From Candidatus Cloacimonadota bacterium (GTDB lineage: Bacteria; Cloacimonadota; Cloacimonadia; G963667145), in assembly GCA_963676515.1 (NCBI GenBank), contig OY781061.1, forward strand, positions 660,776 to 724,775: a stretch of 64,000 nt of DNA. Direction: 5' to 3'. Both the position numbers and the translations under genes were made by a program. How positions within the stretch are numbered: the stretch's first letter is position 1; each line of letters opens with the position of its first letter. The notes beneath the pieces are model-generated. The model was not told where the DNA came from. It ran no database searches and saw only the letters and a program-made list of their open reading frames with translations. Positions 29,741-56,600 of the stretch are shown piece by piece.

Positions 29741-29770
29741 CTTCTTTAAAATTTACTTTTCATATATAAT

Positions 29771-39847: not shown

Positions 39848-39914
39848 TTTTATTCCTCTATTTCCAAAACAATTTCCCAAATAATGTCAACTTTGTTACA
39901 CTTTTGGAATTTGT

Positions 39915-39922
39915 CAAATATA
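39915..39922 (-). promoter_or_regulatory. Candidate promoter element TATATTTG(ACAA) (minus strand), 68 bp upstream of the giant gene 1 start.
   Basis: The same TA(A/T)ATTTGACAA motif sits at an equivalent distance (66 bp) upstream of giant gene 2 (52193-52200). It matches the TAnnTTTG (-7) consensus of Bacteroidota and also contains a TTGACA hexamer. Confidence 0.35.
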
Positions 39923-40056
39923 GTTATGGATTTTTAACTGAAAAATCAAAACAAGTTTGAAAGAGCAGAGCAAAAGTGTCTAGGATTTGGGGTTCATATC
40001 AGGATGTAAGGAAACAGAAACCGCAGATAGACACAGATGACTACAGATGACTGCCC

Positions 40057-40253
40057 CTTTTGTGCATCGTGTGGGAGAATGGATTCCCGCTTCCGCGGGA
40101 ATGAGGGCTGGGTGGCGATGCAGAGCTGGTGGTGAATAAACATACTGGCTGATGAAGGCACAAGGCGTGCGGTGTGCAGGAATGGGGACTGGTGGTGTGC
40201 TTCCTTGCCTTGCTTGCCTCATCCTCGCGAAAGCGGGGATCCAAGGGCGGGTG
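40057..40253. repeat. 'BA' repeat unit copy.
   Basis: Contains the TTCCCGC-TTCC-GCGGGAA palindrome, two Chi-like GCTGGTGG octamers and the GNRA hairpin at 40221-40240. Confidence 0.8.
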
Positions 40254-40384
40254 TAAACACCAGCAGAAATTTTGCGTCTTCAGCGTGCGAGGTAGGTTTA
40301 GATTTTAGATTTCGGCTTTGGTTTTTTGACTGTATGCTTTGTTTCGTATGCATTCCCAAGCTGGAGCTTGGGAACGAGGGGAAA
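40254..40384. repeat. 'C' repeat module copy.
   Basis: cagcagaaattttgcgtcttc...tttgactgtatgctttgtttcgtatgcaTTCCCAAGCTGGAGCTTGGGAAcgagggg. Copies lie at 40971-41099 and 52410-52530, with a variant at 53040-53200. Confidence 0.8.
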
Positions 40385-40414
40385 TCCCTCTGATAAGAGA
40401 AGATACCTGCTTTT

Positions 40415-40639
40415 TAGCTTTCAGCTGGACTCCATCTTTTCTTTGAACGCTCAACGAAAAGATAGAGGAGAAAAGAAAACCGCTCCGCTTCAATCCGCCA
40501 GAGAGATGGCGTGAGGTGTGTAGGCTGTCCGTGGTGGAGAGCACCTCCGATATTTGTTCTTAGCTGTGCATTTTCAATTGCTGGCATTGCAGTGCCATAG
40601 ATAAAGGTCTGTGTCTCTGGCTCTGCCCGTGAAGCGGAG
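40415..40639. repeat. Repeat module 'D', copy 2.
   Basis: About 90% identical to 128-350. Confidence 0.8.
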
Positions 40640-40660
40640 AAATTCCCCATCCTAGCTAGC

Positions 40661-40970
40661 AGGTAAGACCGCCCTTCCCTACCCATTGATAGCATCGTGT
40701 GGGAGAATGGATTCCCGCTTCCGCGGGAATGAGGGCTGGTGGCGATGCAGAGCTGGTGGTGAATAAACATACTGGCTGATGAAGGCACAAGGCGTGTGGT
40801 GTGCAGGAATGGGGACTGGAGGGAACACAGAGGAGACAGTAACCGCAGATGGACACAGATGAGGGCGGGTGGTGACACAAGGCGTGCGGTGTGCAGGAAT
40901 GGGGACTGGTGGTGTGCTTCCTTGCCTTGCTTGCCTCATCCTCGCGAAAGCGGGGATCCAAGGGCGGGTG
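40661..40970. repeat. 'BA' repeat unit copy with an internal ~48-bp partial duplication (40821-40868).
   Basis: Aligns to 40057-40253 except for the inserted segment gggaacacagaggagacagtaaccgcagatggacacagatgagggcgggtggtgac, which is itself related to 40012-40050. Confidence 0.75.
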
Positions 40971-41099
40971 CTAAACACCAGCAGAAATTTTGCGTCTTCG
41001 GCGTGCGGATCGTTTAGAATTTAGCTTACAGCTTTGGTTTTTTGACTGTATGCTTTGTTTCGTATGCATTCCCAAGCTGGAGCTTGGGAACGAGGGGAA
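40971..41099. repeat. 'C' repeat module copy.
   Basis: Aligns to 40254-40384. Palindrome at 41069-41090. Confidence 0.8.
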
Positions 41100-41137
41100 A
41101 AAAATCCTTGCTGCCCAAACAGAAATGAACGAAGCAT

Positions 41138-41173
41138 AAAAAAAGTGAACACGGTCTCTAGTCGTATCCACTT
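41138..41173 (-). terminator. Rho-independent terminator of giant gene 2 (module E).
   Basis: Hairpin agtgaacacggtctctagtcgtatccact with an A7 run on the + strand (U-tract on the minus strand), about 20 bp past the stop codon. Near-identical copy at 53567-53603. Confidence 0.75.
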
Positions 41174-41192
41174 CTTCTTCTAAATTTAAAAT

Positions 41193-44100
41193 CTAGTCAC
41201 TAAAGTAAGGTTGATAATACACATTCCACGCTGGATAAGTATTGAGAGAAAAACTATCGTGACTGGTTACCTTGCTCACATCCCAATTTCCAAGATTTTG
41301 GAAAAAGAGTTTTGCTCCGTTAAACATATGAGCCATATCTGTGACACTACTCACATTCCAATCACTGATGTCTTGGTTAAAAATATATGCAGAAAAAAAC
41401 ATCTTAACCATTTTTGTGACACTACTCACATTCCAACCACGGATGGGTTGGTTAAAAGCATATGCATTACTAAACATATAACTCATGTCTGTGACATTGC
41501 TTACATCCCAATAATTTATGTTTTGGTTAAATGCTTCAGCCTGACAAAACATATTTTTCATAGTGGTGACATTATATACATGCCAACTACCTATGTGTTT
41601 GTTAAAAGAAAGTGCCTTATAAAACATATAACTCATATCTGTGACATTCTTTGTTTCCCAGAAATTTAAGGTTTGGTTAAAAGAAGTTGCACTATAAAAC
41701 ATATAACTCATATCTTTAACATTGCTTACATCCCAACCACCTATGTCTTGGTTAAAAGCACCTGCATAATAAAACATATAACTCATATCTTTGACATTGC
41801 TTACGACCCAACCACCTATGTCTTGGTTAAAAGCACTTGCACCATAAAACATTTGATTCATATCAGTAACATTGCTCACATCCCAACCACTGATATCTTG
41901 ATTGAATGTTGTGTTATTTAAAAACAAGCTAGACATATCTGTAATCATGCCTGTATTTACTTCGCTAACATCATTATCAGCAGTTATCCTAGCCCGCAAA
42001 ACAGTTTTCGAGATATATGGCTTTTTGTATACGGCAGTAGAGTAGTCAGATAGCCCTGCATCGCTATAAGCTTTCACTTTGTAATAATAATTTTGGGTTA
42101 CTCCAATCCCTGTGTCGTCGTAGGTGGTGCTAGTGACACTAGTAATTAACTCATAAGAATCATAGAGAGAGGTTGCTCGGTATATGTTGTATTTTGTAGC
42201 TCCACTGACTGAGTTCCAAGATAAGTCTATTTGCTCAAAGGTTGTAGTTTTAGCTGATAAATTAGTCGGAGCGAGCACATTCGTGGTGACACTCAATAAG
42301 TTAGAATACCCACTTTCGCCGTTTGCATCGCAAGCTGTTACTTTGTAATAATAGGTTGTATTGGCGGAGAGTCCTTTGCTCGCGCCAGACTCGCTAGTGA
42401 CACTAGTGACATAAGTGTCAGGTCCACCACTAGAGGTTGATCTGTATATCTTGTAGCTAGTGGCACCGGCAACTGAGCTCCAGCTCAGGGTTATTTGAGA
42501 AGAGCTGGAATAATCTTTAGCTAGATTGATGGGAGCTGCCAGAATCGTGGTCGCACTTACTTGGCTAGAACTCTCAGATTCCCCTACATCACTGTAGGCT
42601 GTCACCTTGTAGTAATAGGTTGTGCTCACACTGAGCCCTGTGTTAGAGTAAGACTCGCTACTGACACTAATTAGGAGAGTGAGAGTCTCACCACTAGAGG
42701 TTGACCTGTATATCTTGTAACCTTTTGCTCCTGCGACTTTGCCCCACGATAAGTTTATTTGTGAAGAGTTCGTGGCTGTAGCAGAGAAACCCGTGGGAGC
42801 GGCGACGATAGTGGTAGCACTCACCGTGTCGGAGTATTCACTGTTGCCATTTGTGTTGTAGGCTCGCACTGTGTAGAGGTACTCTGTGCCTGCACTGAGC
42901 CCTGTGCTGTGGCAGAGAGTGTCTGTGACAATTTCAGTTTTGAGGTAACTCCCATCGCTATCTAGTCGGTCAACTTTGTAACCTGTAGCTCCTGCGACTG
43001 AGTCCCACGCTATGTCTATCTTAAAGGAGCTGATGACATTACTGGTGAGGTTAGTAGGTGCTAAGACTATCGTGGTGTCCTTCAGGATGTCAGAGTAATC
43101 CGATTCCCCTGCATCATTCTGGGCAGTCACTTTGTAATAATACTCCGTATTTGCAGTGAGCCCTGTGTCGCTGTAAGAGGTGTCCATGCCCACAGCTGTG
43201 TCGAGATAATCTACACCATCTGCAGAGTAATAGAGGCAATAGCTCGTCGCACCAACGACTGAGTCCCATCGCAAATCTATGCGTGATGCACTGACGACGC
43301 TGTCGGTAAGATTGGCTGGAGCTAAGACTCTAGTGGTAGCAATCAGTGTGTCGGAGTATTCGCCATCGCCCTTCGCATTGCGAGCCTTCACCTTGTAATA
43401 GTACTCTGTGTTTGCGGCTAGCCCTGTGCTGTAGTAGGTGGTAACAGTCGTATCGCCAATCTTGGCATACTCTCCATCACGAGAGGGTGCTCGGTATATT
43501 GCGTAGCTCGTCGCTCCAGCGACTGCCTCCCAGCTCAAATCTATGCGTGATGAGCTAAATGCACTGCTGGTGAGGTTAGCAGGAGCTGCGACCATCGTGG
43601 TGTCTGTGAGTATGGCAGAGTATTGACTATAGCCGCCTACATTGTGTGCCCTCACTTTGTAATGATACACCGTGTAAGCTGTGAGTCCCGTGTCGCTGTA
43701 GGAGGTGACATCGCCCACTGCTGTGTCGCTGTAGTGTGTGCCATCTGTGGAGTAAGAGAGGTAATAGCTCGTCGCACCAGCGACTGCCTCCCATTTCAAA
43801 TCGATGCGTGACTCGCTCACGACACTGTCGGTGAAATTGGCAGGAGCGAGGAAAATCGTGGTATCGCTCACTACGCTGGAGAATACGGACTCTCCAGAAG
43901 CACTGTAAGCTAGCACCTTGTAAGAGTAGACTGTATTTGCCGTGAGCCCTGTGCTGTAGTAGGGGGCATCGCTGGTATCGCCGATTTCGCTGTAAGTTCC
44001 ATCACTCTGTAATTGGTGTATGCGATAACCTGTCGCTCCCTCGACTTCGCTCCAAGCTATGTCAATTTGGGAAGAGCTAGTGGCAGTAGCAGAAACGGTA

Positions 44101-47100
44101 GCAGGAGCTAGCACTCTTGTGGTCGCACTAATTGTGTCGGACTCTTCACTGTCGCCATTTCCATTGTGAGCTTTCACCTTGTAAATATACCTTGTGGCTG
44201 CGGCGAGTTCTGTGCTGTGATAGGTAGTAGCAGTTGTGTCGCCTATTTCAGTGTAATACTTGTCACTAAAGAGTGCACGAGATATTTTGTAGCTGGTAGC
44301 CCCGGGGACTGTGTCCCACGATACATCTATCTGTGAGGCACTAACGATGCTGTCCGTGAGGTTACTCGGAGCTACAACGATGGTGGTGTCGCTGGCTACG
44401 CTAGAGAGTGCAGACTGCCCTGCATCACTATAAGCAGATACTTTGTAGAAATACTCTGTGTTTGCGACGAGATTTTTGCTGTGGTAAACTAGCGTTGCAT
44501 AAAGGTCAGTTTCGTCGTAAGTTCCATCACTCTGTAGTTGGTGTATCTTGTAACCTGTCGCTCCTTTAACTTCGCTCCAAGTTATGTCAATTTGGGAAGA
44601 GCTCGTGGCAGTGGCAGAAACATCGGCAGGAACTAACACTCTTGTGGTCACTTTTTTGGCTTGCGAGGCTTCACTATCGCCATTTCCATTGCAAGCTGTT
44701 ACCTTGTAAAGATACTCTGTGTCTGCGATGAGCCCTTTGCTGTCGTCGTAGGACTCACTACTGGCGACACCAACACTGTCGTAATCTCCATCACTAGCGA
44801 GTGCTCGGTATATTTTGTAGCTGGTAGCTCCAGCGACTTCTTGCCAGCTCAGATTCGTCTGTGTAGCACCAGAGGCAATGACTGTGAGACTCGTGGGAGG
44901 CAAGAGTCTCGTGGTGTCGCTCACTACGCTAGAGAGTGCAGATTCGCCTGCATCGCTGTGGGCACTCACTTGGTAATAATACTCTGTGTTTGAAGCAAGC
45001 TCTGTGCTGTGATAGATGAGGCTGTCGGTTGTGCCAAGCTCGCTGTAAATCCCATCACTGCCCAAAATATAGATGCTATAATCTGTCGCTCCCTCTACGA
45101 GAGCCCAAGAGATGTCAATTTGGGAGGAACTCTGAGGCGTAGCCAAAACGCTACTCGGAGCTACGACAATGGTCGTCACTCTCAATGAATCAGAAAATTC
45201 GCTGTCGCCCTTTGTGTTGTGGGCTTTCACCTTGTAGAGGTAGGTTGTGTTTGCGGTGAGCCCTGTGCTGTAGTAGTAGGCAGTGGTCGTATCGCCAATC
45301 TCGGTGTAATCCCCGCCACTAGCGAGTGCTCGGTATATTTTGTAGCTTGTCGCTCCATCTACTTTGCCCCAGCTCAGATCTATGCGTGACTCACTGATGA
45401 CACTGTCGGTAAGTCCCTTCGGAGCTGCGACTATAGTGGTGTCGCTTAAAATTTGGGAAGGCTCGCTCTCGCCGCTTCCATTATCAGCTGTCACTTTGTA
45501 ATAATAAACTGTGTTTGGAGCAAGCTCTGTGCTCTGGTAAGAAGTGTCAGAGGTCGAGTCAATCCCAGCGTAATCTCCATCGATAGAGGAGGCTCGGTAT
45601 ATTTTGTAAATCTGGGCTCCATCGACTTCGTTCCAACTTAGATTTATTTGTGAGGAGCTGACAACACTATCGGTGAGATCGGCAGGAGCTAACACTCTTG
45701 TGGTCGCTTTGATTTCTGAGGCTGCACCATCGCCGTTTACATTGGTAGCTATCACCTTGTAAGAATACTTCGTGTTTGCACTGAGCCCCATGCTCCCATA
45801 GGAAGTTGTATAAACCTCAACTACTCTGCCGTCACTAGAAGGCGTTCGAGATATTTTGTAGCTGGTAGCTCCAAACACTGAGTCCCATTGCAAATCTATG
45901 CGTATCGCACTCACGACATCGTAGGCAAGATTAGCAGGAGTTGCCACTCTTGTGGTCGCACTTTTGCTTTCGGAGGAGTCACTCTCGCCGCCTACATTGT
46001 GAGCGGTTACTCTGTAATAATACTCCGTGTGTGCTGTAAGTCCTACGCTGTCCTCGTAGGACTCGCTACTGGCACTATCCACATAATTGTAATCCCCAAC
46101 CATCGAGAGTGCTCGGTATATTCTGTAGCTCGTGGCTCCATCGACTGAGCTCCAAGATAAACCTATTCGTGAGGAGCTTTCGCTGGTCACTAAAAGATTA
46201 GCAGGAGCCAAGAAAATCGTGGTGTCACTTGCGACATCAGAAGGTACACTCTCACCGCTGGCACTACTAGCACTCACCATATAGAAGTACTCTTTGTTTG
46301 CTGCGAGTCCAGTGCTATCATTGTAATACTCGCTACTGGTCACGCCGACACTGTCGTAGTCTCCATCACTAGAGGATGCTCGGTATATTGCGTAGCTCGT
46401 GGCTCCGCCGACTTCGCCCCAAGCTAAGTCTATTTGGTAAAAGCTTTTGGCAGTAGCTACTAAATTTACAGGAGCTAACACTCTTGTGGTCACTTCTATA
46501 ATTTCTGAGTCTTTGCTGCTACCCTTTGCGTTGTGAGCGTTCAGCTTATAGAAATAAGCTGTGTTCGCACTGAGTCCTGAGTTGTCGAAGTAAACCAAGC
46601 CAGTGCCTCCACCCATTTGCCAATAATCTCCGCCAATAGTGGATGCTCGATGAATTGTGTAGTTGGTAGCTCCAGCCACTAAGTCCCAGCTCAGCTTTAT
46701 TTGTGATGAGCTGATGGCTCTGTCGATGATGTTACTAGGAGCTGCCACCATCGTGGTGTCGGTAGCTATCTCAGAGTATGCGGACTTCCCTGCATCGCTG
46801 TAGGCTTTCACCATGTAAGAGTAGCCTGTGTATGGGCTAAGCCCAGTGCTGTCAGCGTAAAAATCGCTGCTGTCCACGCCAATGCTGTCGTAAGCTCCAC
46901 CAGCAGAGGGTGCTCGGTATATTATATAGCTCGATACTCCGGGGACGGTGTCCCATGCCAAATCTATGCGTGAGGCACTTTTGGTAATGGCTGTCAGATT
47001 ATCAGGGGCTAACACTCTTGTCCTCACAGTCGATACGCCAGAGGCTTCGCTCTCGCCGTTTCCATTGTATGCTGTTACTTTGTAGGAATAATCCGTATCT

Positions 47101-50100
47101 GCACTGAGTCCTGTGCTGTCATCGTAGGACTCGCTACTGACATCCCCAATTGGCTTGTATTCCCCATCACTAGGGTCTAATCGGTACACTTTGTAGTCTG
47201 TGGCTCCATCGACTTTGTCCCAAGATAAATTTATTTGTAATGCACTGAAAGCACTACCGCTAAGATTCGTGGGAGCTAAGACGATCGTGGTATCGCTTGC
47301 CATATCAGAGTAATCGGACTCCCCTACTCCGTTATAAGCTCGGACTTTGTAGTAATACTTTTTGTTTGCGATGAGCTCTATACTGTCCTCGTAGGACTCG
47401 CTACTGGCAACGCCCACACTGTCGTAAGGTCCACTAATATGGGATGCTCGGTATATTTTGTAGCCCTCTATTCCAGCGACTGTGTCCCAAACTAAGTCTA
47501 TTTGTGATGAACTTTTGGCTATGGTAGATAAACCCGTGGGCACAGCGACAATCGTGGTTGCTCTCAAGGTGTCGGAAAAGTCACCCTCGCCGTTTGCATT
47601 TTTAGCTCGGACATAGTAAAAATATTCCTCGTTTGCATCGAGTTCTTTGCTGTCGTAGGTAGTACTCGTGGAGACAAATATAGAAGAGTAATCTGTATCC
47701 TTATTTTTGGAGTAAAAGATATAATAGCCAGTTGCTCCCTTGACTGGGTCCCAAGACAGATTTATCTGTGATGCACTCACGACACTGTAAGAGAAATTGC
47801 TAGGAGCGGCGACGAGCGTGGTTTTGCTCACGGTGCTAGAGGCTTCCGACTCTCCCGCATCGCTATAGGCGGTGACTTTGTAGGAGTAATCTGTGTATGG
47901 GCTGAGCCCTGTGCTCTCGTAAGCGAGCTCCCCAATAACATCGCCGATTTCAGTGCTATCTCCAACACTATTTAGTTGGTAAATTTTGTAGCCTGTAGCT
48001 CCAGCGACTTCGCCCCAAGCTAGGTCAATCTGAGAGGAGCTTTCGACTGTGGCAGACAAACTCGTCGGGGCTGCGACGAGTGTGGTGACAATCAATGTGT
48101 AAGAAAATTCGCTGTCGCCTTTGCCATTGTAGGCTAGCACTTTGTAGTAATGCTCGCTATTTGCGGCGAGTCCTGTGTTGCTGTAGGTGGTGACATTGCC
48201 TACTGCTATCTCGCTGTAAGATTGACCGCTGTCTGCAGAGAAAGCGAGGCGATAGCCCGTTGCTCCGTCGACTTCGTCCCAGCTCAGGTCTATCTGCGAT
48301 GAGCTAACTACACTGTCGCTGAGGTTGCTCGGAGCGGCGACCTTCGTGGTGTCGCTCAGTGTGTCGGAAAACACGCTGTAGCCGTTGCCATTGTAAGCCA
48401 GCACCTTGTAGAAGTAGGCTGTGTTTGCACTAAGCCCTGTGCTGTGGTAGATGAGGCTGTTGGTGTCGCCGATTACCTTGTACTCCCCACCAATGGCGGG
48501 TGCTCGGTAAATTGCGTAGCTGGCTGCTCCAGCGACTGAGTCCCATCGCAAATCTATGCGTGATGCACTGACGACGCTGTCGGCAAGATTGGTTGGAGCT
48601 AGGACGATTGTGGTGTCGCACAATGTGCTAGAGAACGCACCATCGCCTTTGCCATTGTAGGCTAGCACTTTGTAGTAGTGCACGCTATTTGCGGTGAGTC
48701 CCGCGTGGCTGTAGGTGGTGACGGCACAATCTACTGTGTCGCCATAAGTTACGCCGTCTGCCGAGATTGCGAGGAGATAACCATCTGCTCCGTCCACTGC
48801 GTCCCAGCTCAGGTCTATCTGCGATGAGCTGACGACACTGTCGGTGAAATTACTCGGCGCGGCGACGATAGTGATGTCACTCACGACGCTAGAGGTGTCT
48901 GATTCCCCTGCTCCGCTGTAGGCTGTCACCTTGTAGAAGTAGGTTGTGTTTGGGCTGAGTCCTATGCTGTGGTAGAGAGTGTCTGCGATAAGGTCAATGC
49001 CAACATAAGTCCCAGCACTATTTAATTGGTAAACTTTGTAGCCTGTCGCTCCAGCAACTTTGCCCCAAGATAAGTCTATTCGCTCAGAACTTCGGGTTGT
49101 GGCAGCTAGCTTACTCGGAGCGGCGACAATCGTGGTGTCGCTCAGTATGGCAGAGAAATTGCTGTAACCTTTTGTGTTGTATGCCCTTACCTTGTAGTAA
49201 TGCACGCTATTTGCGGCGAGTCCTGTGTCGCTGTAGGTGGTGACATTGCCCACTGCTGTGTCGCTGTATGTCCGCCCGCTGTCTACAGAGAACGAGAGGC
49301 AATAGCCATTAGCACCAGTGACTGCATCCCAATAGAGATCAATCTGTGATGCACTGCTGACACCATTGGTGAGATTGCTCGGAGCGGCGACGATTGTGGT
49401 GTCGCTCAGTGTGCTAGAAAATTCGCTATAACCATTGCTATTGTAAGCCTTTAGCTTGTAGATGTAGACTGTGAAAGCGGCGAGTCCTGTGTCGCTGTAG
49501 AAGTTGCTACTGGCAACGCCGACACTGTCGTTCACTCCACCACTGGCGGGTGTGCGGTATATTGTGTAGCTGGCAGCTCCGGGGACTGTGTCCCATCGCA
49601 AATCTATGCGTGATGCACTCACGACGCTGTCACTGAGGTTGCTCGGCGGTGCAACGATGGTGGTGTCGCTCACCGTGCTGGAGGCTTTGCTGTCGCCAAC
49701 TGCACTGTATGCCCTCACCCTGTAGAAGTACTCGGTGTTTGCGGTGAGTCCTGTGCTTTGGTAGGCGGTGACATTGCCTAGAATGGTGTCAAACTGGATA
49801 CCAGCAGTGGTGGACTGGGTTAGTTTATAGCCGTCTGCTCCTTCCACTTCGCTCCACGATATGTCGATTCGAGATGAGCTCTTGCTTTTGGCGGAGATAT
49901 TTTTCGGTGTCAAGACCATCGTGTAGGTGCTCAAGGTGTCCGAGAATTCGCTATAGCCTCTCAGATTGTAGGCTCGCACTGCGTAGAAATACTTCGTGTT
50001 TGCCTCGAGACCTGTGCTGGGGTAGAGAGTGTCCGTGCCGATAGGTGTGTCGCTGTAAGTTTGACCGTTGTCGGCAGAGAAAGAAAGATAATATTCAGTT

Positions 50101-52127
50101 GCTCCATCGACTTTGCTCCACGACAAATCTATCTTTGAAGAATCTACAACACGATAGGAGAAATTGGCAGGGACTGCGACCATCGTGGTGTCGCTCACGA
50201 TGTCAGAGGCATCAGATTCCCCAGCGGCACTGTAAGCTGCCACTTTGTAGTAGTAGCCTGTGTTCGCGGTAAGCCCTTTGCTCTGGTAAAAAGTAGCTTT
50301 GCCAAGGTCAACGCCGCTGTAAACTCCACTGCTAGAGTCTGATGTGTATATTATGTAGCCAGTAGCTCCAGCGACTGAGTTCCAAGACAAATTTATTTGT
50401 GCTGCACTGACGACACTATCGGTGAGGTTCGTCGGAGCGAGGACCTTTGTGGTGACTATCAATGTGTCAGAAAATTCGCTATCGCCCTTTTCATTGTAAG
50501 CCATAACTTTGTAGCGGTAGGCTTTGTCGGCGGTGAGCCCTGTAGAGTGATAAGTGGTGAGCTTGCCAACTGCTGTGTCGCTGTAAGAGAGCCCATCGTT
50601 TGCGGAGAAATAGAAATAATAGCCATCTGCACCCTCGACTGCATGCCAAGATATGTCTATTTGAGAAGAACTGACAACCGTGTCGGACAAACCAGCAGGA
50701 GCTGCGACCACCGTGGTTTCAGTCACTATGCTAGAAAATTCACTATTGTGGGCATTATTATAAGCTTGAATCTTGTAGGAATACTCTGTATTTGCTTTGA
50801 GCCCTGTGCTGTGGTGAAAGGTATCGTTGACTATGGTTATGTCATCAAATTTTACACCGTCTGTTGATCTGTGGAGGTAATAGCCTCGTGCTCCATCGAC
50901 TGCATCCCAAGATAGGTCTATTAGCGAAGAGCTTTTGGTTTCCGCCGTTAAATTCTCAGGGGTGTTTACATTTATTTTCCCCTTTACTATTTCGGAGAAC
51001 TCAGATGTGTCCACAGCGTTATAAGCTTCTATCTTGTAAAAATACTCTATCTCTCGCTCGGAGACGACATCACTGTAAGAGAGGACATTACCAATATCTC
51101 TGGCGATATAACTATTGCCCTGGTTTGCGGATCTATGGAGGAAATAACCCGTCACTCCACTGGATTTATACCAAGACAAACTTATATGTATCGAGTCTTG
51201 AACGAAAAGGGAAAGTCCTTCTGGTTTCAATAGACTCAATCTCACATCTACGGTATTAGAAAAATCCGAAATCTTAGTAGATCTATAAGCTTTTAATTTG
51301 TAAAAATATTTTATTTGTGGGTTGGAAACTGTGTCTGTGTAGCAAGTAGCACTGCCGTCATATATCTGGATGTACTCATCGCTGATGGTAGAAGATCTGT
51401 AGAGATAATAGCCTTCTGCACCCTCGACAGTGTCCCACGACAGATATATTTGTGATAAACTTGTAGCTGCAGCGGCTAGATTGGTAGGATCTGTGACAAT
51501 GGTGGTGTCGCTCGCGATGTTAGAGTAATCGCCATTGCCACCAGTGTTGTACGCTTTTACCTTGTAATAATAGACGGTGTTTGGTTTGAGTCCTGTGTTA
51601 CTATAAAAATTGTCACTGCCATCACCAATTTTATTGTAAGTCCCATATAGAGAAGAGGACTTGTATATTCTATAGTTTGCTTCCCCATTCACTGCACCCC
51701 AAGATAGATCTATTTGAGAAGAGCTCACAGAAGTAGCCGTTAAGTTGCTAGGAGTAGAAACAAATGTGAGAGCACTTGCGACATTCGAAAATTCACTCTC
51801 CCCGTTAACATTATACGCTTTCACCTTGTAATAATATTCTGTGTTCGAACTGAGTCCAATGTTGGTATAGGAGTTGCTACTAATATTGTTAATTTCGCTG
51901 TAAACGCCATCAATGATTGTTGATCGATATACTTTATAACCTGTCGCTCCACTGACTACATACCAAATTATATCTATTTGAGAAGAATCTACGGCAGTCA
52001 CGACGAGATTTGTAGGAACAGCTGGAAGAGGGATTTCCTCTGTATCTTCATCCTCATAGGTGGTGGTGCAGGTCACAAAGACCACCGAACTAAATATGAT
52101 AACTAAAATTTTTAACCAGTTTTTCAA
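41193..52127 (-). CDS. Giant surface lipoprotein paralog 2 (3,644 aa). Lipoprotein signal, about 32 FN3-like modules and a C-terminal BspA/DUF285-type LRR block (~10 repeats, 41193-41990).
   Basis: Uninterrupted 10.9-kb ORF. N-terminus MKNWLKILVIIFSSVVFVTC-TTTYEDEDTEE, a lipobox Cys followed by an acidic stretch. Same module pattern as paralog 1. Large blocks are near-identical to paralog 3. Confidence 0.85.
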   Translation of the reverse strand: MKNWLKILVIIFSSVVFVTCTTTYEDEDTEEIPLPAVPTNLVVTAVDSSQIDIIWYVVSGATGYKVYRSTIIDGVYSEINNISSNSYTNIGLSSNTEYYYKVKAYNVNGESEFSNVASALTFVSTPSNLTATSVSSSQIDLSWGAVNGEANYRIYKSSSLYGTYNKIGDGSDNFYSNTGLKPNTVYYYKVKAYNTGGNGDYSNIASDTTIVTDPTNLAAAATSLSQIYLSWDTVEGAEGYYLYRSSTISDEYIQIYDGSATCYTDTVSNPQIKYFYKLKAYRSTKISDFSNTVDVRLSLLKPEGLSLFVQDSIHISLSWYKSSGVTGYFLHRSANQGNSYIARDIGNVLSYSDVVSEREIEYFYKIEAYNAVDTSEFSEIVKGKINVNTPENLTAETKSSSLIDLSWDAVDGARGYYLHRSTDGVKFDDITIVNDTFHHSTGLKANTEYSYKIQAYNNAHNSEFSSIVTETTVVAAPAGLSDTVVSSSQIDISWHAVEGADGYYFYFSANDGLSYSDTAVGKLTTYHSTGLTADKAYRYKVMAYNEKGDSEFSDTLIVTTKVLAPTNLTDSVVSAAQINLSWNSVAGATGYIIYTSDSSSGVYSGVDLGKATFYQSKGLTANTGYYYKVAAYSAAGESDASDIVSDTTMVAVPANFSYRVVDSSKIDLSWSKVDGATEYYLSFSADNGQTYSDTPIGTDTLYPSTGLEANTKYFYAVRAYNLRGYSEFSDTLSTYTMVLTPKNISAKSKSSSRIDISWSEVEGADGYKLTQSTTAGIQFDTILGNVTAYQSTGLTANTEYFYRVRAYSAVGDSKASSTVSDTTIVAPPSNLSDSVVSASRIDLRWDTVPGAASYTIYRTPASGGVNDSVGVASSNFYSDTGLAAFTVYIYKLKAYNSNGYSEFSSTLSDTTIVAAPSNLTNGVSSASQIDLYWDAVTGANGYCLSFSVDSGRTYSDTAVGNVTTYSDTGLAANSVHYYKVRAYNTKGYSNFSAILSDTTIVAAPSKLAATTRSSERIDLSWGKVAGATGYKVYQLNSAGTYVGIDLIADTLYHSIGLSPNTTYFYKVTAYSGAGESDTSSVVSDITIVAAPSNFTDSVVSSSQIDLSWDAVDGADGYLLAISADGVTYGDTVDCAVTTYSHAGLTANSVHYYKVLAYNGKGDGAFSSTLCDTTIVLAPTNLADSVVSASRIDLRWDSVAGAASYAIYRAPAIGGEYKVIGDTNSLIYHSTGLSANTAYFYKVLAYNGNGYSVFSDTLSDTTKVAAPSNLSDSVVSSSQIDLSWDEVDGATGYRLAFSADSGQSYSEIAVGNVTTYSNTGLAANSEHYYKVLAYNGKGDSEFSYTLIVTTLVAAPTSLSATVESSSQIDLAWGEVAGATGYKIYQLNSVGDSTEIGDVIGELAYESTGLSPYTDYSYKVTAYSDAGESEASSTVSKTTLVAAPSNFSYSVVSASQINLSWDPVKGATGYYIFYSKNKDTDYSSIFVSTSTTYDSKELDANEEYFYYVRAKNANGEGDFSDTLRATTIVAVPTGLSTIAKSSSQIDLVWDTVAGIEGYKIYRASHISGPYDSVGVASSESYEDSIELIANKKYYYKVRAYNGVGESDYSDMASDTTIVLAPTNLSGSAFSALQINLSWDKVDGATDYKVYRLDPSDGEYKPIGDVSSESYDDSTGLSADTDYSYKVTAYNGNGESEASGVSTVRTRVLAPDNLTAITKSASRIDLAWDTVPGVSSYIIYRAPSAGGAYDSIGVDSSDFYADSTGLSPYTGYSYMVKAYSDAGKSAYSEIATDTTMVAAPSNIIDRAISSSQIKLSWDLVAGATNYTIHRASTIGGDYWQMGGGTGLVYFDNSGLSANTAYFYKLNAHNAKGSSKDSEIIEVTTRVLAPVNLVATAKSFYQIDLAWGEVGGATSYAIYRASSSDGDYDSVGVTSSEYYNDSTGLAANKEYFYMVSASSASGESVPSDVASDTTIFLAPANLLVTSESSSRIGLSWSSVDGATSYRIYRALSMVGDYNYVDSASSESYEDSVGLTAHTEYYYRVTAHNVGGESDSSESKSATTRVATPANLAYDVVSAIRIDLQWDSVFGATSYKISRTPSSDGRVVEVYTTSYGSMGLSANTKYSYKVIATNVNGDGAASEIKATTRVLAPADLTDSVVSSSQINLSWNEVDGAQIYKIYRASSIDGDYAGIDSTSDTSYQSTELAPNTVYYYKVTADNGSGESEPSQILSDTTIVAAPKGLTDSVISESRIDLSWGKVDGATSYKIYRALASGGDYTEIGDTTTAYYYSTGLTANTTYLYKVKAHNTKGDSEFSDSLRVTTIVVAPSSVLATPQSSSQIDISWALVEGATDYSIYILGSDGIYSELGTTDSLIYHSTELASNTEYYYQVSAHSDAGESALSSVVSDTTRLLPPTSLTVIASGATQTNLSWQEVAGATSYKIYRALASDGDYDSVGVASSESYDDSKGLIADTEYLYKVTACNGNGDSEASQAKKVTTRVLVPADVSATATSSSQIDITWSEVKGATGYKIHQLQSDGTYDETDLYATLVYHSKNLVANTEYFYKVSAYSDAGQSALSSVASDTTIVVAPSNLTDSIVSASQIDVSWDTVPGATSYKISRALFSDKYYTEIGDTTATTYHSTELAAATRYIYKVKAHNGNGDSEESDTISATTRVLAPATVSATATSSSQIDIAWSEVEGATGYRIHQLQSDGTYSEIGDTSDAPYYSTGLTANTVYSYKVLAYSASGESVFSSVVSDTTIFLAPANFTDSVVSESRIDLKWEAVAGATSYYLSYSTDGTHYSDTAVGDVTSYSDTGLTAYTVYHYKVRAHNVGGYSQYSAILTDTTMVAAPANLTSSAFSSSRIDLSWEAVAGATSYAIYRAPSRDGEYAKIGDTTVTTYYSTGLAANTEYYYKVKARNAKGDGEYSDTLIATTRVLAPANLTDSVVSASRIDLRWDSVVGATSYCLYYSADGVDYLDTAVGMDTSYSDTGLTANTEYYYKVTAQNDAGESDYSDILKDTTIVLAPTNLTSNVISSFKIDIAWDSVAGATGYKVDRLDSDGSYLKTEIVTDTLCHSTGLSAGTEYLYTVRAYNTNGNSEYSDTVSATTIVAAPTGFSATATNSSQINLSWGKVAGAKGYKIYRSTSSGETLTLLISVSSESYSNTGLSVSTTYYYKVTAYSDVGESESSSQVSATTILAAPINLAKDYSSSSQITLSWSSVAGATSYKIYRSTSSGGPDTYVTSVTSESGASKGLSANTTYYYKVTACDANGESGYSNLLSVTTNVLAPTNLSAKTTTFEQIDLSWNSVSGATKYNIYRATSLYDSYELITSVTSTTYDDTGIGVTQNYYYKVKAYSDAGLSDYSTAVYKKPYISKTVLRARITADNDVSEVNTGMITDMSSLFLNNTTFNQDISGWDVSNVTDMNQMFYGASAFNQDIGGWVVSNVKDMSYMFYYAGAFNQDIGGWDVSNVKDMSYMFYSATSFNQTLNFWETKNVTDMSYMFYKALSFNKHIGSWHVYNVTTMKNMFCQAEAFNQNINYWDVSNVTDMSYMFSNAYAFNQPIRGWNVSSVTKMVKMFFSAYIFNQDISDWNVSSVTDMAHMFNGAKLFFQNLGNWDVSKVTSHDSFSLNTYPAWNVYYQPYFSD

Positions 52128-52192
52128 TTTTTCCTTCTCTTTTTAAAAAAATCCCAAGTTAAGTTCCACAGTACTAGACTTTTAAAAGTTGT

Positions 52193-52200
52193 CAAATTTA
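52193..52200 (-). promoter_or_regulatory. Candidate promoter element TAAATTTG(ACAA), 66 bp upstream of the giant gene 2 start.
   Basis: Shared motif and spacing with 39915-39922. Confidence 0.35.
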
Positions 52201-52309
52201 GAAGTAATTTTTTCTCTAAAAAAGACAAAAATGAGCTTGGAATTTCACTGAAAAAAAGAAAAGAGGATTTTATTCACAAATAAAAAATAGTAGTTAAAAT
52301 GGGACACCG

Positions 52310-52390
52310 CCCTTTCCTGCCCATTGAAGGCATCGTGTGGGGGAATGGATTCCCGCTTCCGCGGGAATGAGGGCTGGTGGGAACGCAAGG
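52310..52390. repeat. Head fragment of the 'BA' unit.
   Basis: cattgaaggcatcgtgtgggggaatggattcccgcttccgcgggaatgagggctggtgg. Confidence 0.7.
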
Positions 52391-52409
52391 CGAGTGGTGA
52401 GCGGAGAAC

Positions 52410-52530
52410 TGTAGAGACGCAAAATTTTGCGTCTTCGGTGTGCGGGGTTGGTTTAGAATTTAGCTTTCGACTTTGGTATTTTGACTGTATGCTTTGTTTC
52501 GTATGCATTCCCAAGCTGGAGCTTGGGAAC
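52410..52530. repeat. 'C' repeat module copy.
   Basis: Contains an 18-bp perfect palindrome GACGCAAAATTTTGCGTC (52416-52433) and TTCCCAAGCTGGAGCTTGGGAA (52508-52529). Confidence 0.8.
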
Positions 52531-52544
52531 GAGGGGAAAGGGGA

Positions 52545-52610
52545 CTGCCCTGCCCTGCCCCTTTTGTGCATCGTGTGGGAGAATGGATTCCCGCTTCCGC
52601 GGGAATGAGG
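52545..52610. repeat. Head fragment of the 'BA' unit.
   Basis: ctgccctgccccttttgtgcatcgtgtgggagaatggattcccgcttccgcgggaatgagg. Confidence 0.7.
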
Positions 52611-53039
52611 ATGAAAAACTAAAACCTGAAAAACTTACCTATTACTGTGGTTTCTCTTACCAGAGTGGTTTTCATTTTTCTTTTGTAACCAAAGGAAAAA
52701 CCGAAACAAAAAGAAAAGTTCCTTTTGGCATAAACTCGCTATAAGGGCGGCGAGAGGAGAGTGAGGCAAACCAACGGAGTAGAGCTCCTTCCGTGTAATG
52801 TCCATAAGCTTTGTTGTTATCTGGAGGTGTCGTCTGACGGTGAATAGATACTGGTTTTTTCTTATGCTCAAACTTATGCCAAAAGTGATACCACCCAGCC
52901 CCAGAGCGTGCTAAGGGGAAAGTTGGGCTAGCAAATACTTAAAGCAGGAAGCGTGAAATTCGTTAACCGCCCAGAGCTACGCTGACGACGAAGTGCTATA
53001 TCACCTATAAAATGACAGATGAGATTCATAGCACGAGGC

Positions 53040-53200: not shown

Positions 53201-53204
53201 GAAA

Positions 53205-53490: not shown

Positions 53491-53566
53491 AGAGCGAGTG
53501 GGCTTCGCTCGGTTATCAGCTGACACCTCCAGCGTGTGAGGAAATGAACAAAGCATAAAAAAAAGT

Positions 53567-53603: not shown

Positions 53604-53612
53604 ATTTAAAAT

Positions 53613-56600
53613 CTAGTCACTAAAGGGAGGTCTCTTTTGAAAAGACCAATTATAAGCTCCTACATCATAATCTTCATGACTGGTAACTTTTTCTACATCC
53701 CATCCACTTAAGTCAAAAATAAAACAAGATACACCATAAAACATATAATCCATATCCGTGACACTACTCACATCCCAACCACCTATGTCTCGGTAAAAAG
53801 CAACTGCACTATAAAACATGCCTTCCATATCTGTGACCTTATTCACCGTCCAATCACTTATGTCTTGATTAAAATCTTTTGCTGCACAAAACATATAACG
53901 CATATTTGTGACACTACTCACATTCCAACCACCTATGTCTTGGTTAAAAGCATCTGCCCCATAAAACATATAACTCATATTTGAGGCACTACTAACAGCC
54001 CAATCACCTATGTCTTGGTTAAAAGCATCTGCCCCATAAAACATATAACTCATATTTGAGGCACTATTAACAGCCCAACCACCTATGTCTTGGTTAAAAG
54101 CAGATGCCTCATAAAACATATGACTCATATCTGTGACCATCAACATTCTCCAACTATATATACTCTTATTAAATGCATATGCACGATAGAACATATAACT
54201 CGTATTTGTGAGCTTCTCTGTATCCCAGCCACCTATATATTGGTTAAAAACAGATGCCTCAGAAAACATATAACTCATATCCGTGACATTAGACACTTTC
54301 CAACCACCTATATATTGGTTAAAAGCAGATGCCCCAGAAAACATATACCTCATAGTTGTGACATTACCTACGACCCAATCACCTATGTCTTGGTTAAAAG
54401 CAGATGCATTACAAAACATAAAACTCATATTTGTGACTTTGCTCACATTCCAGCCACCTATGTCTTGGTTAAAAGCAAATGCAGACTGAAACATAGAATT
54501 CATATTTGTGACATTATTAACATCCCATCCACCTATGTCTTGGTTAAAAGCTTTTGCGAAAAAAAACATTTTTTCCATATTCGTGACACTATTCATTTGC
54601 CAACCACCTATGTCTTGGTTAAAAGCATCTGCTGCATAAAACATCTCGCTCATATCCGTAACTTTACTCACATCCCACTTGCTTATATCTTGATTGAATT
54701 TTGTTTTATCATAAAACAAACCAGACATATCTGTAATTCCGCCTGTATTGACTAGGGTGACATCATCACCAGCAGCTACCTTACTCCGCAAAGTAGCTTC
54801 CGTGATATATGTCGTGGCATTTGCGATATTGGAGTCGGCAGATTCCCCTGCTGCTGCAGTATAAGCTTTCACTTTGTAATAATACTCTTGGTTTTCGCTA
54901 AGCCATGTATCGTTGTAGGAAGTGCCAGCGACATTACCGATTGGGGAGTAACTGCTATATTCAGAGTCTGCTCGGTATATGTAGTATTGTGTAACTCCTT
55001 GCACTGAGCTCCAAGATAAGTTTATTTGCCCAAAGGTTGTGGTTTTAGCTGATAAATTAGTCGGAGCATCAACTTTTGTGGTGACAATCAATGTATTCGA
55101 TACTTCACTATCCCCCTTCTCATTATAAGCTATCACCTTGCAGTGATAGATTGTGTTTGAGGTGAGTTCTTTTTTTGTGCAGGAAGTAACATTCCCAACG
55201 CTTGTGCCGGCGAAACTTAGATTGCCGTCTGCGAAGTAGAAATAATAGCCTGTAGCTCCCTCGACTTTGTTCCAAGATATCGTTATTTGGGAAGAGGTAG
55301 CAGATGTTTTGGTTAGATTAGTCGGAGCAGCTACCATCGTGGTTTCACTCGCCTTGCTAGAGTACTCAGATTCCCCTGCATCGCTGTAGGCTGTCACTTT
55401 GTAGTAGTAGGTTGTATTGGCGGAGAGTTCTTTGCTCTGGTAAGTTGTATCCGTGATATCGTCAATTTCGCTGTAAGTTCCATCACTAGAGGCTGATCTG
55501 TATATTTTATAGCCAGTCTTCCCTTCAACTTCGCTCCAAGATAAATCTATTTGGAAAGCACTTTTGGTAGTAGCGGAAAAGCCCGTTGGAGCTAACACTC
55601 TTGTGGTCGCCCTCAATTCGTCAGAAAATTCGCTATTGCCCTTTGTATTGTGAGCTAGCACCTTGTAATAATACTCTGTGTCAGCAATGAGTCCTGTGTG
55701 GCTGTAAGAAGTGACATTGCCGACTGCTGTGTCGGTGTATGTCTTGCCGCTATCGGCAGAGTAAGCGAGGTAATAATCTGTCGCTCCGACGACTGTGTCC
55801 CAATATATGTCTATCTGTGAGGAACTGGTGATAGTGTCGATTAGGTTGACTGGAGCTGCAACGATGGTGGTGTCGCTCAGTGTGTCAGAAAATTCACTCT
55901 CACCGTTCCCATTGTGTGCTAGCACCTTGTAAAAATACACGGTATTCGCAATAAGGCTTTCGATGCTAAAGCTGGTGTCAGTGGTAGCCTCTTTTCGGGT
56001 ATAGTTTCCGTCTCTGCTTGTGTCTATATAAATATCGTAGCCTGCTGCTCCAGCGACTAGACTCCAGCTCAAATCTATCTGCGATGCACTGATGACGCTG
56101 TCGGTGAGATTAGCAGGAGCTGCAACGATGGTGGTATCGAGCAATGTGCTGGAGAACTCACTCTTGCCGTTCCCATTGTGAGCTTGCACCTTGTAATAGT
56201 GCTCTGTGTTTGCACTGAGCCCTGTGTGGCTGTAGGTAGTGACATCGCCCACTGCTGTGTCGGTGTAGCTACTACCATCGACTGAGTAAGAGAGGTAATA
56301 ACTTGTAGCTCCAACGACTGTGTCCCAGCTCAGATCGATGCGTGACTCGCTCACGACACTATCGGCTAAATTGGTAGGAGCTGCAACGATGGTGGTGTCA
56401 CTGGCGAATATAGAGTAATCACTCTCGCCGCTTGCATTCTTGGCTGTCACTTTGTAGAAATACTCTTTGTTTGCGGCTAGCCCTGTGGTGTCCTCGTAGG
56501 ACTCGCTACTGGCAACACCAACATCTATGTATTCGCCATCTCTAGTGGGTGCTCGGTATATTTTATAGTCATCAGCATCCGTGACTGCATCCCAAGCTAA

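What the first reader, a model, noticed from the sequence alone, without database searches (positions are those of the whole stretch)
48300..49700. Evidence for gene conversion between giant paralogs 2 and 3, and homogenised internal repeats in paralog 1.
Paralogs 2 and 3 are co-linear. Long blocks are about 90% or more identical at the DNA level by eye (for example 48360-48840 vs 60900-61380; protein runs such as TMVLTP.N..AKSKSSSRIDISWSEV.GADGY...IVAPPSNLSDSVVSASRIDLRWDTVPGAASYTIYRTPASGGVNDSVG). Other blocks have diverged. Inside paralog 1, many ~290-bp modules are near-identical (for example 32101-32210 vs 32621-32730; the motif gtgttccaaaacagctttatctgtgatgaactaatgacactgtcggtgaggctcttaggagcatc recurs at least 5 times). 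Such a patchwork is the substrate and footprint of recombination-driven variation: module gain or loss and segment swapping between paralogs. It is a plausible antigenic or size-variation mechanism. It is also a warning that short-read assemblies of this region may be collapsed or chimeric.
Basis: seen in the sequence. Interest (0 to 1): 0.6.

Follow-up and report, generated by a model that had tools for sequence, protein, structure and literature searches.

The report
Recombining giant surface-protein gene family
Three neighbouring 10-11 kb genes for repetitive cell-surface lipoproteins carry a real, statistically supported patchwork left by past recombination between their repeat modules, which is the ordinary way such genes evolve and not evidence of a programmed variation system.

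Summary
P1 (29771-39847), P2 (41193-52127) and P3 (53613->64000) lie on the minus strand. Each encodes a lipoprotein-like signal, 35-38 FN3 modules of 87-89 aa (about 264 nt, not 290) and a C-terminal PARCEL/DUF285 tract.

P2 and P3 match module for module only over P2 modules 3-24, and again at the last module plus tail. Within that part, modules 7-16 (47826-50363 vs 60372-62909) are 90.0% identical. Their 4-fold-site distance is 0.15, against 0.30-0.35 in the flanks and 0.69 in modules 25-37. With P1 as outgroup, the drop is specific to the P2-P3 pair (Fisher p=0.001), so it is not a locally slow rate.

P1 modules 10-32 form an amplified array with a four-module (1053 nt) higher-order unit. 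Same-type modules are 76-96% identical. The closest relative changes every 90-300 nt, and the PHI recombination test gives p<0.001.

A fourth paralog on the same 1.58-Mb contig has a much more homogenised array.

There are no silent cassettes, recombinase genes or simple-sequence switches. The minimum dS is about 0.07 and the longest exact repeat is 129 nt. This is concerted evolution over evolutionary time, a known kind. Antigenic or size variation remains untested, and the risk of assembly collapse here is low.

The parts
29771..39847 (-). P1: giant FN3(35)-PARCEL surface lipoprotein gene, 3358 aa from a GTG start. The open frame extends upstream to a TTG at 39880.
   Evidence: ORF list. Pfam/NCBIfam FN3, DUF285 and PARCEL. 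Start codon from the alignment with the P2 5' region. The database copy of this protein, P0364, is 3358 aa.
31313..37366 (-). P1 amplified array, modules 10-32. The higher-order unit is four modules [A C B C] = 1053 nt. Tracts of about 90-300 nt are shared in a mosaic among non-adjacent modules.
   Evidence: Module identity matrix and clusters. Self-blast offsets 528, 1053, 1578 and 3690. PHI p<0.001. Polymorphic-site display. Nearest-partner map.
29774..30499 (-). P1 PARCEL/DUF285 tract, about 9 units of 25 aa
41193..52127 (-). P2: giant FN3(38)-PARCEL surface lipoprotein gene, 3644 aa, TTG start
   Evidence: Its database copy is P0363.
47826..50363 (-). P2 modules 7-16: the block of young shared ancestry with P3. 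It is 90.0% identical to 60372-62909 and contains the finding span.
   Evidence: Scan test. NG86 dS 0.225 against 0.45-0.47 in the flanks. 4-fold JC distance 0.15 against 0.30-0.35. Outgroup control. Ungapped identity 2285/2538.
60372..62909 (-). P3 counterpart of the young block (offset +12546)
45702..51503 (-). P2 modules 3-24: the part that matches P3 modules 1-22 (58248-63998) one to one
   Evidence: 73-94% per module; high-identity tracts are nearly all positional
42285..45701 (-). P2 modules 25-37: no demonstrable positional match to P3. 4-fold JC distance 0.69, dS about 1.06.
48141..48188 (-). Divergent island in P2 module 15. It is 45/48 identical to P2 module 11 (49191-49238) but only 28/48 to collinear P3: a candidate short-tract ectopic conversion.
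41196..41996 (-). P2 PARCEL/DUF285 tract, about 10 units of 25 aa
53613..64000 (-). P3: giant FN3(>=35)-PARCEL gene. About 226 N-terminal residues lie beyond the window end.
53616..54788 (-). P3 PARCEL/DUF285 tract, about 15 units of 25 aa
41125..41180 (-). Conserved terminator-like hairpin plus U-run just after the P2 stop. Homologous copies lie after the P1 stop (29700-29755) and the P3 stop (53545-53600).
   Evidence: Alignment. Folds of -17.6 to -23.4 kcal/mol, z = -3.9 to -7.3.
39881..41192 (.). Spacer between P1 and P2, built of REP/MITE-like composite repeats. The P2-P3 spacer, 52128-53612, is built the same way.

Best explanation
The window holds three tandem, same-strand, complete genes for giant cell-surface lipoproteins. 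A fourth member lies elsewhere on the same contig. Each protein has a signal peptide ending in Cys, 35-38 FN3 modules and a C-terminal PARCEL/DUF285 (BspA-type) repeat tract.

Their roughly 264-nt modules give homologous recombination plenty of substrate, and the family has evolved by concerted evolution in three ways:
(a) An in-register exchange between P2 and P3 over modules 7-16 (about 2.5 kb). This was gene conversion or an equivalent later partial re-duplication. It left that block with about half the silent divergence of the flanking collinear modules.
(b) In P1, amplification of a four-module unit into a 23-module array, followed by repeated short-tract (about 100-300 nt) exchange or unequal crossing-over among modules.
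(c) In-frame gain and loss of whole FN3 and PARCEL units.

Shown: the mosaic itself, its statistical support, and the module indels. Inferred: that RecA-type homologous recombination made it, and that selection on a variable surface structure maintains it. The events are old (silent divergence 0.07 or more everywhere). The data do not show a programmed or high-frequency switch.
For: Architecture: 34 FN3 stretches (803 bits), DUF285 (314 bits), TIGR02167 PARCEL (79 bits).

Module map and positional matches.

P2-P3 silent divergence is uneven: 10.7% vs 22.8% of silent codons differ (0 of 300 permutations); identical runs of 129, 97 and 84 nt against a null 99th percentile of 64. dS is 0.225 against 0.45-0.47 and 1.06, while dN/dS stays at 0.33-0.45. 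4-fold JC distances are 0.15 against 0.30-0.35 and 0.69.

Outgroup control: P2-P3 4-fold differences fall from 0.33 (modules 4-6) to 0.14 (modules 7-10), p=0.001. P1-P2 (0.38 to 0.33) and P1-P3 (0.45 to 0.34) do not change significantly.

Two short segments have P1 closer to P2 than P3 is. One island has an ectopic donor at 45/48.

P1 array: PHI p=0/1000 for families A and C and 0.009 for B, with the calibration. Block sharing is visible directly, for example module 29 = module 15 (5' 190 nt) + module 27 (3' 70 nt). The nearest partner changes every 90-300 nt at 90-99% identity.

Fourth paralog P0368 on the same 1,581,858-bp contig: modules 4-16 are 73-100% identical at the protein level and combine three variable sub-blocks in most pairings.

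Each gene has its own start region and terminator.
Against: Only one genome is available, and no close relative turned up in any collection (best 34-42% identity). Ortholog-versus-paralog comparison, the classic test of concerted evolution, could not be done.

NG86 dS to the outgroup P1 is also lower in modules 7-10 (0.62 vs 1.0). So part of the gradient could be rate or estimation heterogeneity, or three-way exchange. Only the cleaner 4-fold-site test separates the pairs.

Conversion, partial re-duplication and unequal crossing-over leave the same footprint here.

No tract is recent: the longest exact repeat is 129 nt. Ongoing activity is therefore unproven.
Confidence: 0.72

Rival explanations
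1. Segmental duplications of different ages and unequal crossing-over only. Modules 7-16 (or 3-24) were copied later than the rest, and P1's array arose by nested tandem duplications with shifted boundaries. No non-reciprocal conversion was involved.
For: P1 self-similarity is highest at whole-unit offsets, 1053 and 3690 nt. All partner shifts but one are even multiples of a module. High-identity P2-P3 tracts are strictly in register. Whole-module indels exist.
Against: Partners change 2-4 times inside single modules, and flanking modules do not continue the same partnership. Short incongruent patches and a 48-nt island with an ectopic donor lie inside otherwise collinear blocks. A replacement of an internal 2.5-kb block by its paralog is, by definition, a conversion-type event.
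Confidence: 0.18
2. One duplication followed by uniform time but uneven substitution rates: stronger constraint, or a lower mutation rate, in modules 7-16. No recombination.
For: dN and dS rise and fall together. NG86 dS to P1 is also lower in modules 7-10. The high-identity modules have higher GC at 4-fold sites, so composition differs along the gene.
Against: At 4-fold sites the drop is specific to the P2-P3 pair (p=0.001); P1-P2 and P1-P3 do not change significantly. dN/dS is flat at 0.33-0.45. PHI incompatibility in P1 families is not produced by clustered rate heterogeneity in simulations. P2 modules 25-37 have lost positional matches altogether.
Confidence: 0.05
3. Assembly or consensus artefact: reads from different repeat copies or co-existing strains were merged, creating chimeric modules.
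For: The source is an unnamed NCBI+ENA record, probably a metagenome-assembled contig of 1.58 Mb. Repeat arrays are error-prone.
Against: Three uninterrupted reading frames of 10-11 kb. Even the most similar blocks differ by about 10%, and the longest exact repeat is 129 nt, so copies can be told apart. Differences respect codon structure, with dN/dS about 0.3-0.4.
Confidence: 0.04
4. A programmed antigenic-variation system of the pilE/pilS, vlsE, msp2, tprK or MgPa type. One paralog is expressed and the others serve as donor cassettes for frequent conversion.
For: Tandem paralogs of a surface protein with mosaic identity. Repeat-rich spacers with shared 95%-identical elements.
Against: All three copies are full length. 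Conserved signal peptide, ribosome-binding site and start region are seen for P1 and P2, and a terminator for all three; P3's 5' end lies outside the window. No copy is truncated or promoterless. No tract is younger than dS about 0.07, and no identical tract exceeds 129 nt. The scanned ORFs contain no recombinase or invertase, and the 5' regions have no simple-sequence repeats.
Confidence: 0.02

Closest known systems
PARCEL / DUF285 proteins, which NCBI names 'BspA family leucine-rich repeat surface protein' (Roske et al. 2010, PMC2996958)
   Same: Tandem 25-residue amphipathic repeats in variable number at the C-terminus. A membrane-targeting lipoprotein-type signal. Multiple paralogs per genome. 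The paper itself proposes intra-genomic shuffling and recombination between copies. HMM scores are far above the cut-offs. Thousands of relatives match the tail at 40-60% identity.
   Different: Here the PARCEL tract is only the last 7-11% of the protein. The bulk is a 35-38 module FN3 array, and the recombination footprint under study lies in that array. The paper does not mention fibronectin-type domains. DNA dyad symmetry was not detectable by blastn.
Leptospira LigA/LigB and similar paralogous arrays of Ig-like domains (my own knowledge, not checked here)
   Same: Paralogous surface lipoproteins made of tandem beta-sandwich modules of about 90 aa. One part of the array is far more similar between paralogs than the rest, and alleles are mosaic through recombination.
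   Different: The domain family differs (Big_2 vs FN3) and Lig proteins lack a PARCEL tail. The shared Lig region is nearly identical, whereas here the youngest block is 90% identical. No host-interaction data exist for this organism.
Streptococcal Alp/Rib, staphylococcal and RTX-type giant adhesins with tandem identical repeats (my own knowledge)
   Same: Repeat-number change by in-frame recombination between modules, and homogenised arrays. The fourth paralog P0368, with 73-100% identical modules, resembles these most closely.
   Different: P1-P3 arrays are much less homogenised (76-96%), and length variation between isolates has not been observed here.
Programmed gene-conversion systems: M. 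genitalium MgPa/MgPar (PMC2169797), Borrelia vlsE (PMC3828179), Neisseria pilE/pilS
   Same: Segmental exchange between repeated copies of surface-protein sequence.
   Different: Those systems have one expression site plus silent partial cassettes and show variation within clonal populations. Here all copies are complete genes and the exchange is evolutionarily old.
Yeast FLO adhesin paralogs undergoing ectopic recombination (PMC3512402)
   Same: Cell-surface gene duplicates with internal tandem repeats that form chimeric alleles by recombination between paralogs.
   Different: Eukaryotic and subtelomeric, with unrelated domains.

Membership tests
FN3 (PF00041) tandem-module proteins | Significant matches to the FN3 profile in tandem | tested here: met
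   P2 has 34 stretches, 803 bits against a cut-off of 25. Anchoring on the conserved Trp at 87-89 aa spacing gives 35, 38 and >=35 modules.
PARCEL / DUF285 (BspA-type) surface proteins | Tandem 25-residue repeat matching PF03382 / TIGR02167 | tested here: met
   PF03382 314 bits (cut-off 25). TIGR02167 78.8 and 75.6 bits (cut-off 30). Exact 25-aa periodicity with about 9, 10 and 15 units. TRF period 75 nt.
PARCEL / DUF285 (BspA-type) surface proteins | Dyad symmetry of the coding DNA (the 'palindromic' part of the name) | tested here: inconclusive
   The antisense frames are open, with 25-aa periodicity. But blastn of each tract against its own reverse complement found nothing significant.
PARCEL / DUF285 (BspA-type) surface proteins | Membrane or lipoprotein targeting signal | tested here: inconclusive
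   N-termini MKNCFKLLAIIFSLVIFVTC and MKNWLKILVIIFSSVVFVTC have a hydrophobic core ending in Cys. No signal-peptidase II predictor was available, and Thr at -1 is not canonical.
Concerted evolution by homologous recombination in repeat-bearing surface-protein paralogs | Uneven silent divergence between paralogs that is not explained by local rate | tested here: met
Concerted evolution by homologous recombination in repeat-bearing surface-protein paralogs | Phylogenetic incompatibility or mosaic tracts among modules | tested here: met
   PHI p<0.001 (A, C) and 0.009 (B); calibration; tract maps
Concerted evolution by homologous recombination in repeat-bearing surface-protein paralogs | Paralogs or modules within a genome more alike than orthologs between genomes | not testable with these tools
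   No relative above about 42% identity in genome, metagenome or protein collections. The source contig is not in the gene-position index.
Programmed gene-conversion antigenic variation (pilE/pilS, vlsE, msp2, tprK, MgPa) | One expression site plus silent, truncated, promoterless donor cassettes | tested here: not met
   No copy is truncated at its 3' end, and all three have their own terminator. P1 and P2 also have their own ribosome-binding site, start codon and conserved upstream TTGACA box; P3's 5' end lies outside the window.
Programmed gene-conversion antigenic variation (pilE/pilS, vlsE, msp2, tprK, MgPa) | New variants arising within clonal populations | not testable with these tools
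   No reads and no isolates
Phase-variable surface genes (simple-sequence or invertible-promoter switches) | Homopolymer or simple-sequence tract in the 5' region, or an invertase with flanking inverted repeats | tested here: not met
   No homopolymer of 8 or more and no simple-sequence repeat in the 5' regions. No recombinase domain among the scanned ORFs; 16046-17179 was not scanned.

The most novel reading that the evidence does not exclude
The four or more FN3-PARCEL giant lipoprotein genes of this uncultured bacterium (contig of about 1.6 Mb) act as mutual donors in an active, recombination-based system that diversifies the cell surface. Module swapping and copy-number change would then be visible as population-level variants. 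GC-biased gene conversion would be raising GC at silent sites in the exchanging modules. This would be a previously undescribed architecture for such a system.
Probability: 0.2. Interest if true: 0.5.

Novelty: new member of a known kind. Interest (0 to 1): 0.3.

Why it matters
The result documents concerted evolution in a bacterial giant-protein family with an FN3-array plus PARCEL-tail architecture, for which I found no description in the papers searched. It also gives exact module maps and breakpoints that long-read population data could test.

In practice, annotations and comparative analyses of these genes must work module by module, and paralog trees built from whole genes would mislead. 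It does not open a new mechanism. Recombination-driven mosaicism in repetitive surface proteins is well known.

Tried and rejected
- A protein database search with full-length P2 timed out. Fragment searches returned only short, distant FN3 or DUF285 proteins, 42% and about 60% identity at best.
- Scans of genome contigs and metagenome contigs found no close relative, 34-41% at best. Cross-genome tests of concerted evolution were therefore impossible, and the organism could not be named.
- GalE is 100% identical to an unnamed NCBI+ENA protein on a 1,581,858-bp contig. The next relative is 68% identical, on a 2.13-Mb ENA contig.
- Exact look-ups of window proteins in the gene-position index failed, so no DNA was obtained for the P3 N-terminus or the fourth paralog.
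- The NG86 dS outgroup control was ambiguous. I replaced it with counts at 4-fold sites.
- Most divergent islands inside the young block have no convincing donor in the window; only one does.
- The positional profile of P2/P3 amino-acid differences follows the ordinary FN3 alternation of buried and exposed positions, not a targeted hypervariable patch. No reverse transcriptase was found among the scanned ORFs either, so I dropped a diversity-generating retroelement.
- Rfam gathering scan: nothing.
- PDB sequence search with the PARCEL tail: nothing.
- blastn did not detect PARCEL dyad symmetry.
- Promoter and terminator consensus scans of the spacers were no better than shuffles. The terminators were found by alignment and folding instead.
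Full report
LAYOUT. The window holds a 28-kb, low-GC (28-33%) surface-polysaccharide biosynthesis locus on the minus strand. It includes GalE, TviB/TviC-like enzymes, glycosyltransferases, EpsG, aminotransferase and acyltransferase genes. Three giant minus-strand reading frames at 42-53% GC follow: P1 29771-39880, P2 41193-52127, and P3 53613 to the window end.

Pfam and NCBIfam assign about 34 FN3 stretches (803 bits). They also assign a C-terminal DUF285 / PARCEL tract (PF03382 314 bits; TIGR02167 79 bits). Anchoring on the conserved Trp gives FN3 modules of 87-89 aa: 35 in P1, 38 in P2 and at least 35 in P3, whose first ~226 residues lie outside the window. The tails hold about 9, 10 and 15 PARCEL units of exactly 25 aa.

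Aligning the 5' regions shows a conserved TTGACA box, a ribosome-binding site and non-ATG starts: GTG at 39847 for P1 and TTG at 52127 for P2. The database copy of P1 is indeed 3358 aa. A conserved hairpin plus U-run follows each stop codon. Each paralog is therefore a complete, separate gene.

CHECKING THE OBSERVATION. The quoted P2/P3 block is real, at an offset of 12546 rather than 12540. 48360-48840 vs 60906-61386 is 91.9% identical, and the finding span 48300-49700 is 90.8% identical. The quoted peptides occur in both proteins. Overall there is one collinear alignment at 77.8%. In 50-codon windows the identity runs from 53% to 99%.

At module level the 1:1 positional match holds for P2 modules 3-24 against P3 modules 1-22 (73-94%), and again for the last module and the tail. 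P2 modules 25-37 have no positional partner, and their best matches reach only 65-74%. The median over all module pairs is 60% and the 95th percentile is 70%.

In P1 the example pair has a period of 525 and is 93.6% identical. The modules are about 264 nt, not 290. The 65-nt motif is exact once and reaches five copies only when 8 mismatches are allowed.

IS THE P2/P3 PATCHWORK MORE THAN CHANCE OR SELECTION? Within the clearly collinear part, silent codon differences are 10.7% inside P2 aa 589-1434 and 22.8% outside (scan chi2 38.7; 0 of 300 permutations). The longest identical runs, 129, 97 and 84 nt, exceed the null 99th percentile of 64.

By block, P2 against P3:
- Modules 3-6: NG86 dS 0.47, 4-fold JC distance 0.35.
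- Modules 7-16: dS 0.225, JC 0.15.
- Modules 17-24: dS 0.45, JC 0.30.
- Modules 25-37: dS 1.06, JC 0.69.

dN/dS stays flat at 0.33-0.45 across these blocks. That fits segments of different age and not different constraint.

The outgroup control needed care. NG86 dS from P1 is also lower in modules 7-10. Counting only 4-fold third positions gives a cleaner answer. P2-P3 falls from 0.33 to 0.14 (Fisher p=0.001). P1-P2 (0.38 to 0.33) and P1-P3 (0.45 to 0.34) do not change significantly. The site patterns also shift: in modules 4-6 the three paralogs are nearly equidistant, and in modules 7-10 P2 and P3 clearly pair against P1.

Two short segments have P1 closer to P2 than P3 is. One 48-nt island in P2 module 15 matches P2 module 11 at 45/48 but collinear P3 at only 28/48. 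High-identity P2-P3 tracts are otherwise strictly in register.

THE P1 ARRAY. Modules 10-32 (31313-37366) fall into families:
- A: modules 10, 14, 18, 24, 28, 32.
- C: modules 11, 13, 15, 17, 27, 29, with module 21 as a looser relative that was included in the test alignment.
- B: modules 12, 16, 26, 30.
- Three pairs: 19/23, 20/22 and 25/31.

Together they form a four-module higher-order unit [A C B C]. Self-alignments peak at offsets 528, 1053, 1578 and 3690 nt, but at only 72-76% identity over kilobases. Within families the identity is 76-96% and dS is 0.07-0.46. The array is therefore amplified and partly homogenised, not near-identical.

The PHI test gives p=0/1000 for A and C and 0.009 for B. 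My implementation gave 1.7% false positives at p<=0.01, and none at p=0, on 120 tree-like simulations with clustered rate heterogeneity. The polymorphic-site displays show block sharing directly. Module 29 follows module 15 for about 190 nt and then module 27 for about 70 nt. A nearest-partner scan shows the closest relative changing every 90-300 nt at 90-99% identity, and all shifts but one are even multiples of a module.

WIDER FAMILY. An exhaustive profile search returned P2 and P1 themselves plus P0368 (2302 aa), which sits on the same 1,581,858-bp contig. P0368 has the same signal type, 19 FN3 modules, the same linker, a longer PARCEL tract, and P1's C-terminal ...SYKPF ending. Its modules 4-16 are 73-100% identical at the protein level. 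They are built from three variable sub-blocks found in most pairings. This is independent evidence that module shuffling and homogenisation run through the family.

Other top hits come from unrelated organisms: a Vibrio jumbo phage, Capsulimonadaceae, Seonamhaeicola and Saprospiraceae. No relative closer than about 42% exists in the collections searched.

MECHANISM AND LIMITS. The best reading is concerted evolution by homologous recombination. It comprises an in-register conversion-type exchange between P2 and P3, short-tract exchange and unequal crossing-over within arrays, and whole-module indels.

With one genome, conversion cannot be separated from a later partial re-duplication. Nothing indicates a programmed system. 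There are no silent cassettes. None of the ORFs scanned carries a recombinase or reverse transcriptase domain; 16046-17179 was not scanned. There are no simple-sequence switches. No tract is younger than dS about 0.07 or identical for more than 129 nt. That same figure makes assembly collapse unlikely in this region.

COMPARISON. The tail is a bona fide PARCEL/DUF285 tract (Roske et al. 2010, PMC2996958). That paper already proposes intragenomic shuffling of such repeats but does not mention FN3 arrays.

The evolutionary behaviour matches the Lig, Alp/Rib and FLO types of repeat adhesin paralogs (the first two from my own knowledge; FLO from PMC3512402). It differs from cassette systems such as MgPa and vlsE (PMC2169797, PMC3828179).

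VERDICT. A real and well-supported but ordinary phenomenon: a new member of a known kind, interest about 0.3.

Noticed in passing
39881-41192 and 52128-53612; also 62-81 and 390-409: The spacers between the giant genes consist of REP/MITE-like composite units (direct repeats 630-720 nt apart). They carry two perfect palindromes. TTCCCAAGCTGGAGCTTGGGAA has 4 copies. ATTCCCGC-N4-GCGGGAAT has 6 copies in the spacers and 2 more at the far end of the window. The two spacers share 203 nt at 95.6%, including a 129-nt exact repeat. ORFs listed there, such as 40414-40878, are translations of these repeats and match no family.
   Followed up: partly
Protein P0368 (not in the window; same 1,581,858-bp contig): A fourth FN3(19)-PARCEL lipoprotein paralog. 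Its modules 4-16 are 73-100% identical at the protein level (modules 6 and 12 are identical), far more homogenised than P1. Its DNA could not be retrieved.
   Followed up: partly
FN3 modules of all three genes, 29771-64000: GC at 4-fold sites is higher in modules that have a close paralogous partner: P1 0.513 vs 0.422 (Mann-Whitney p=0.0006), P2 0.509 vs 0.458 (p=0.035), P3 not significant. This fits GC-biased gene conversion, but modules are not independent and substitutions were not polarised.
   Followed up: partly
41928-42284 (P2 aa 3282-3400) and the P3 counterpart: The last FN3 module plus the linker before the PARCEL tract has dN/dS of about 1.1 between P2 and P3, against 0.33-0.45 in the rest of the FN3 array. 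This could be relaxed or diversifying selection, or alignment noise over 119 codons.
   Followed up: no
41211-41669 and 54090-54755 (+ strand): Long antisense ORFs lie over the P2 and P3 PARCEL tracts, and their translations have 25-aa periodicity. A third + strand ORF, 30554-31132, lies just next to the P1 tract. They look like a by-product of the repeat's codon pattern (the 'palindromic' property of PARCELs), although blastn found no self-complementarity.
   Followed up: partly
39847 and 52127; 29700-29755, 41125-41180, 53545-53600: P1 and P2 use non-ATG starts (GTG, TTG) behind GAGGA/AAGGA ribosome-binding sites and a conserved TTGACA box. All three genes end with a conserved hairpin plus U7-8 terminator. 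The duplication unit therefore included the regulatory flanks.
   Followed up: yes
1700-29236: A 28-kb polysaccharide (O-antigen or capsule type) locus at 28-33% GC lies directly beside the 42-53% GC giant genes and the 44% GC at the window start. The composition suggests horizontal acquisition.
   Followed up: partly
P3 module 31 (about 55869-56132) and P1 modules 20 and 22: P3 module 31 shares a distinctive module type (GY.VYIDTS.DGNYTR...FSIESL) with P1 modules 20 and 22, at 74-76% nt identity. P2's best match is only 70%. This hints at exchange between P1 and P3, or loss in P2.
   Followed up: no
L113 (ENA ERZ25068633 ctg160132_47x_c, 2.10 Mb): Another small circular genome carries three tandem giant genes (1944, 3583 and >3290 aa). 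The first two combine DUF285 with PKD arrays, and the third has FG-GAP and PKD arrays with no DUF285 among the hits listed. A phage-integrase-like gene lies beside them. The organisation parallels this window, with a different beta-sandwich module.
   Followed up: no
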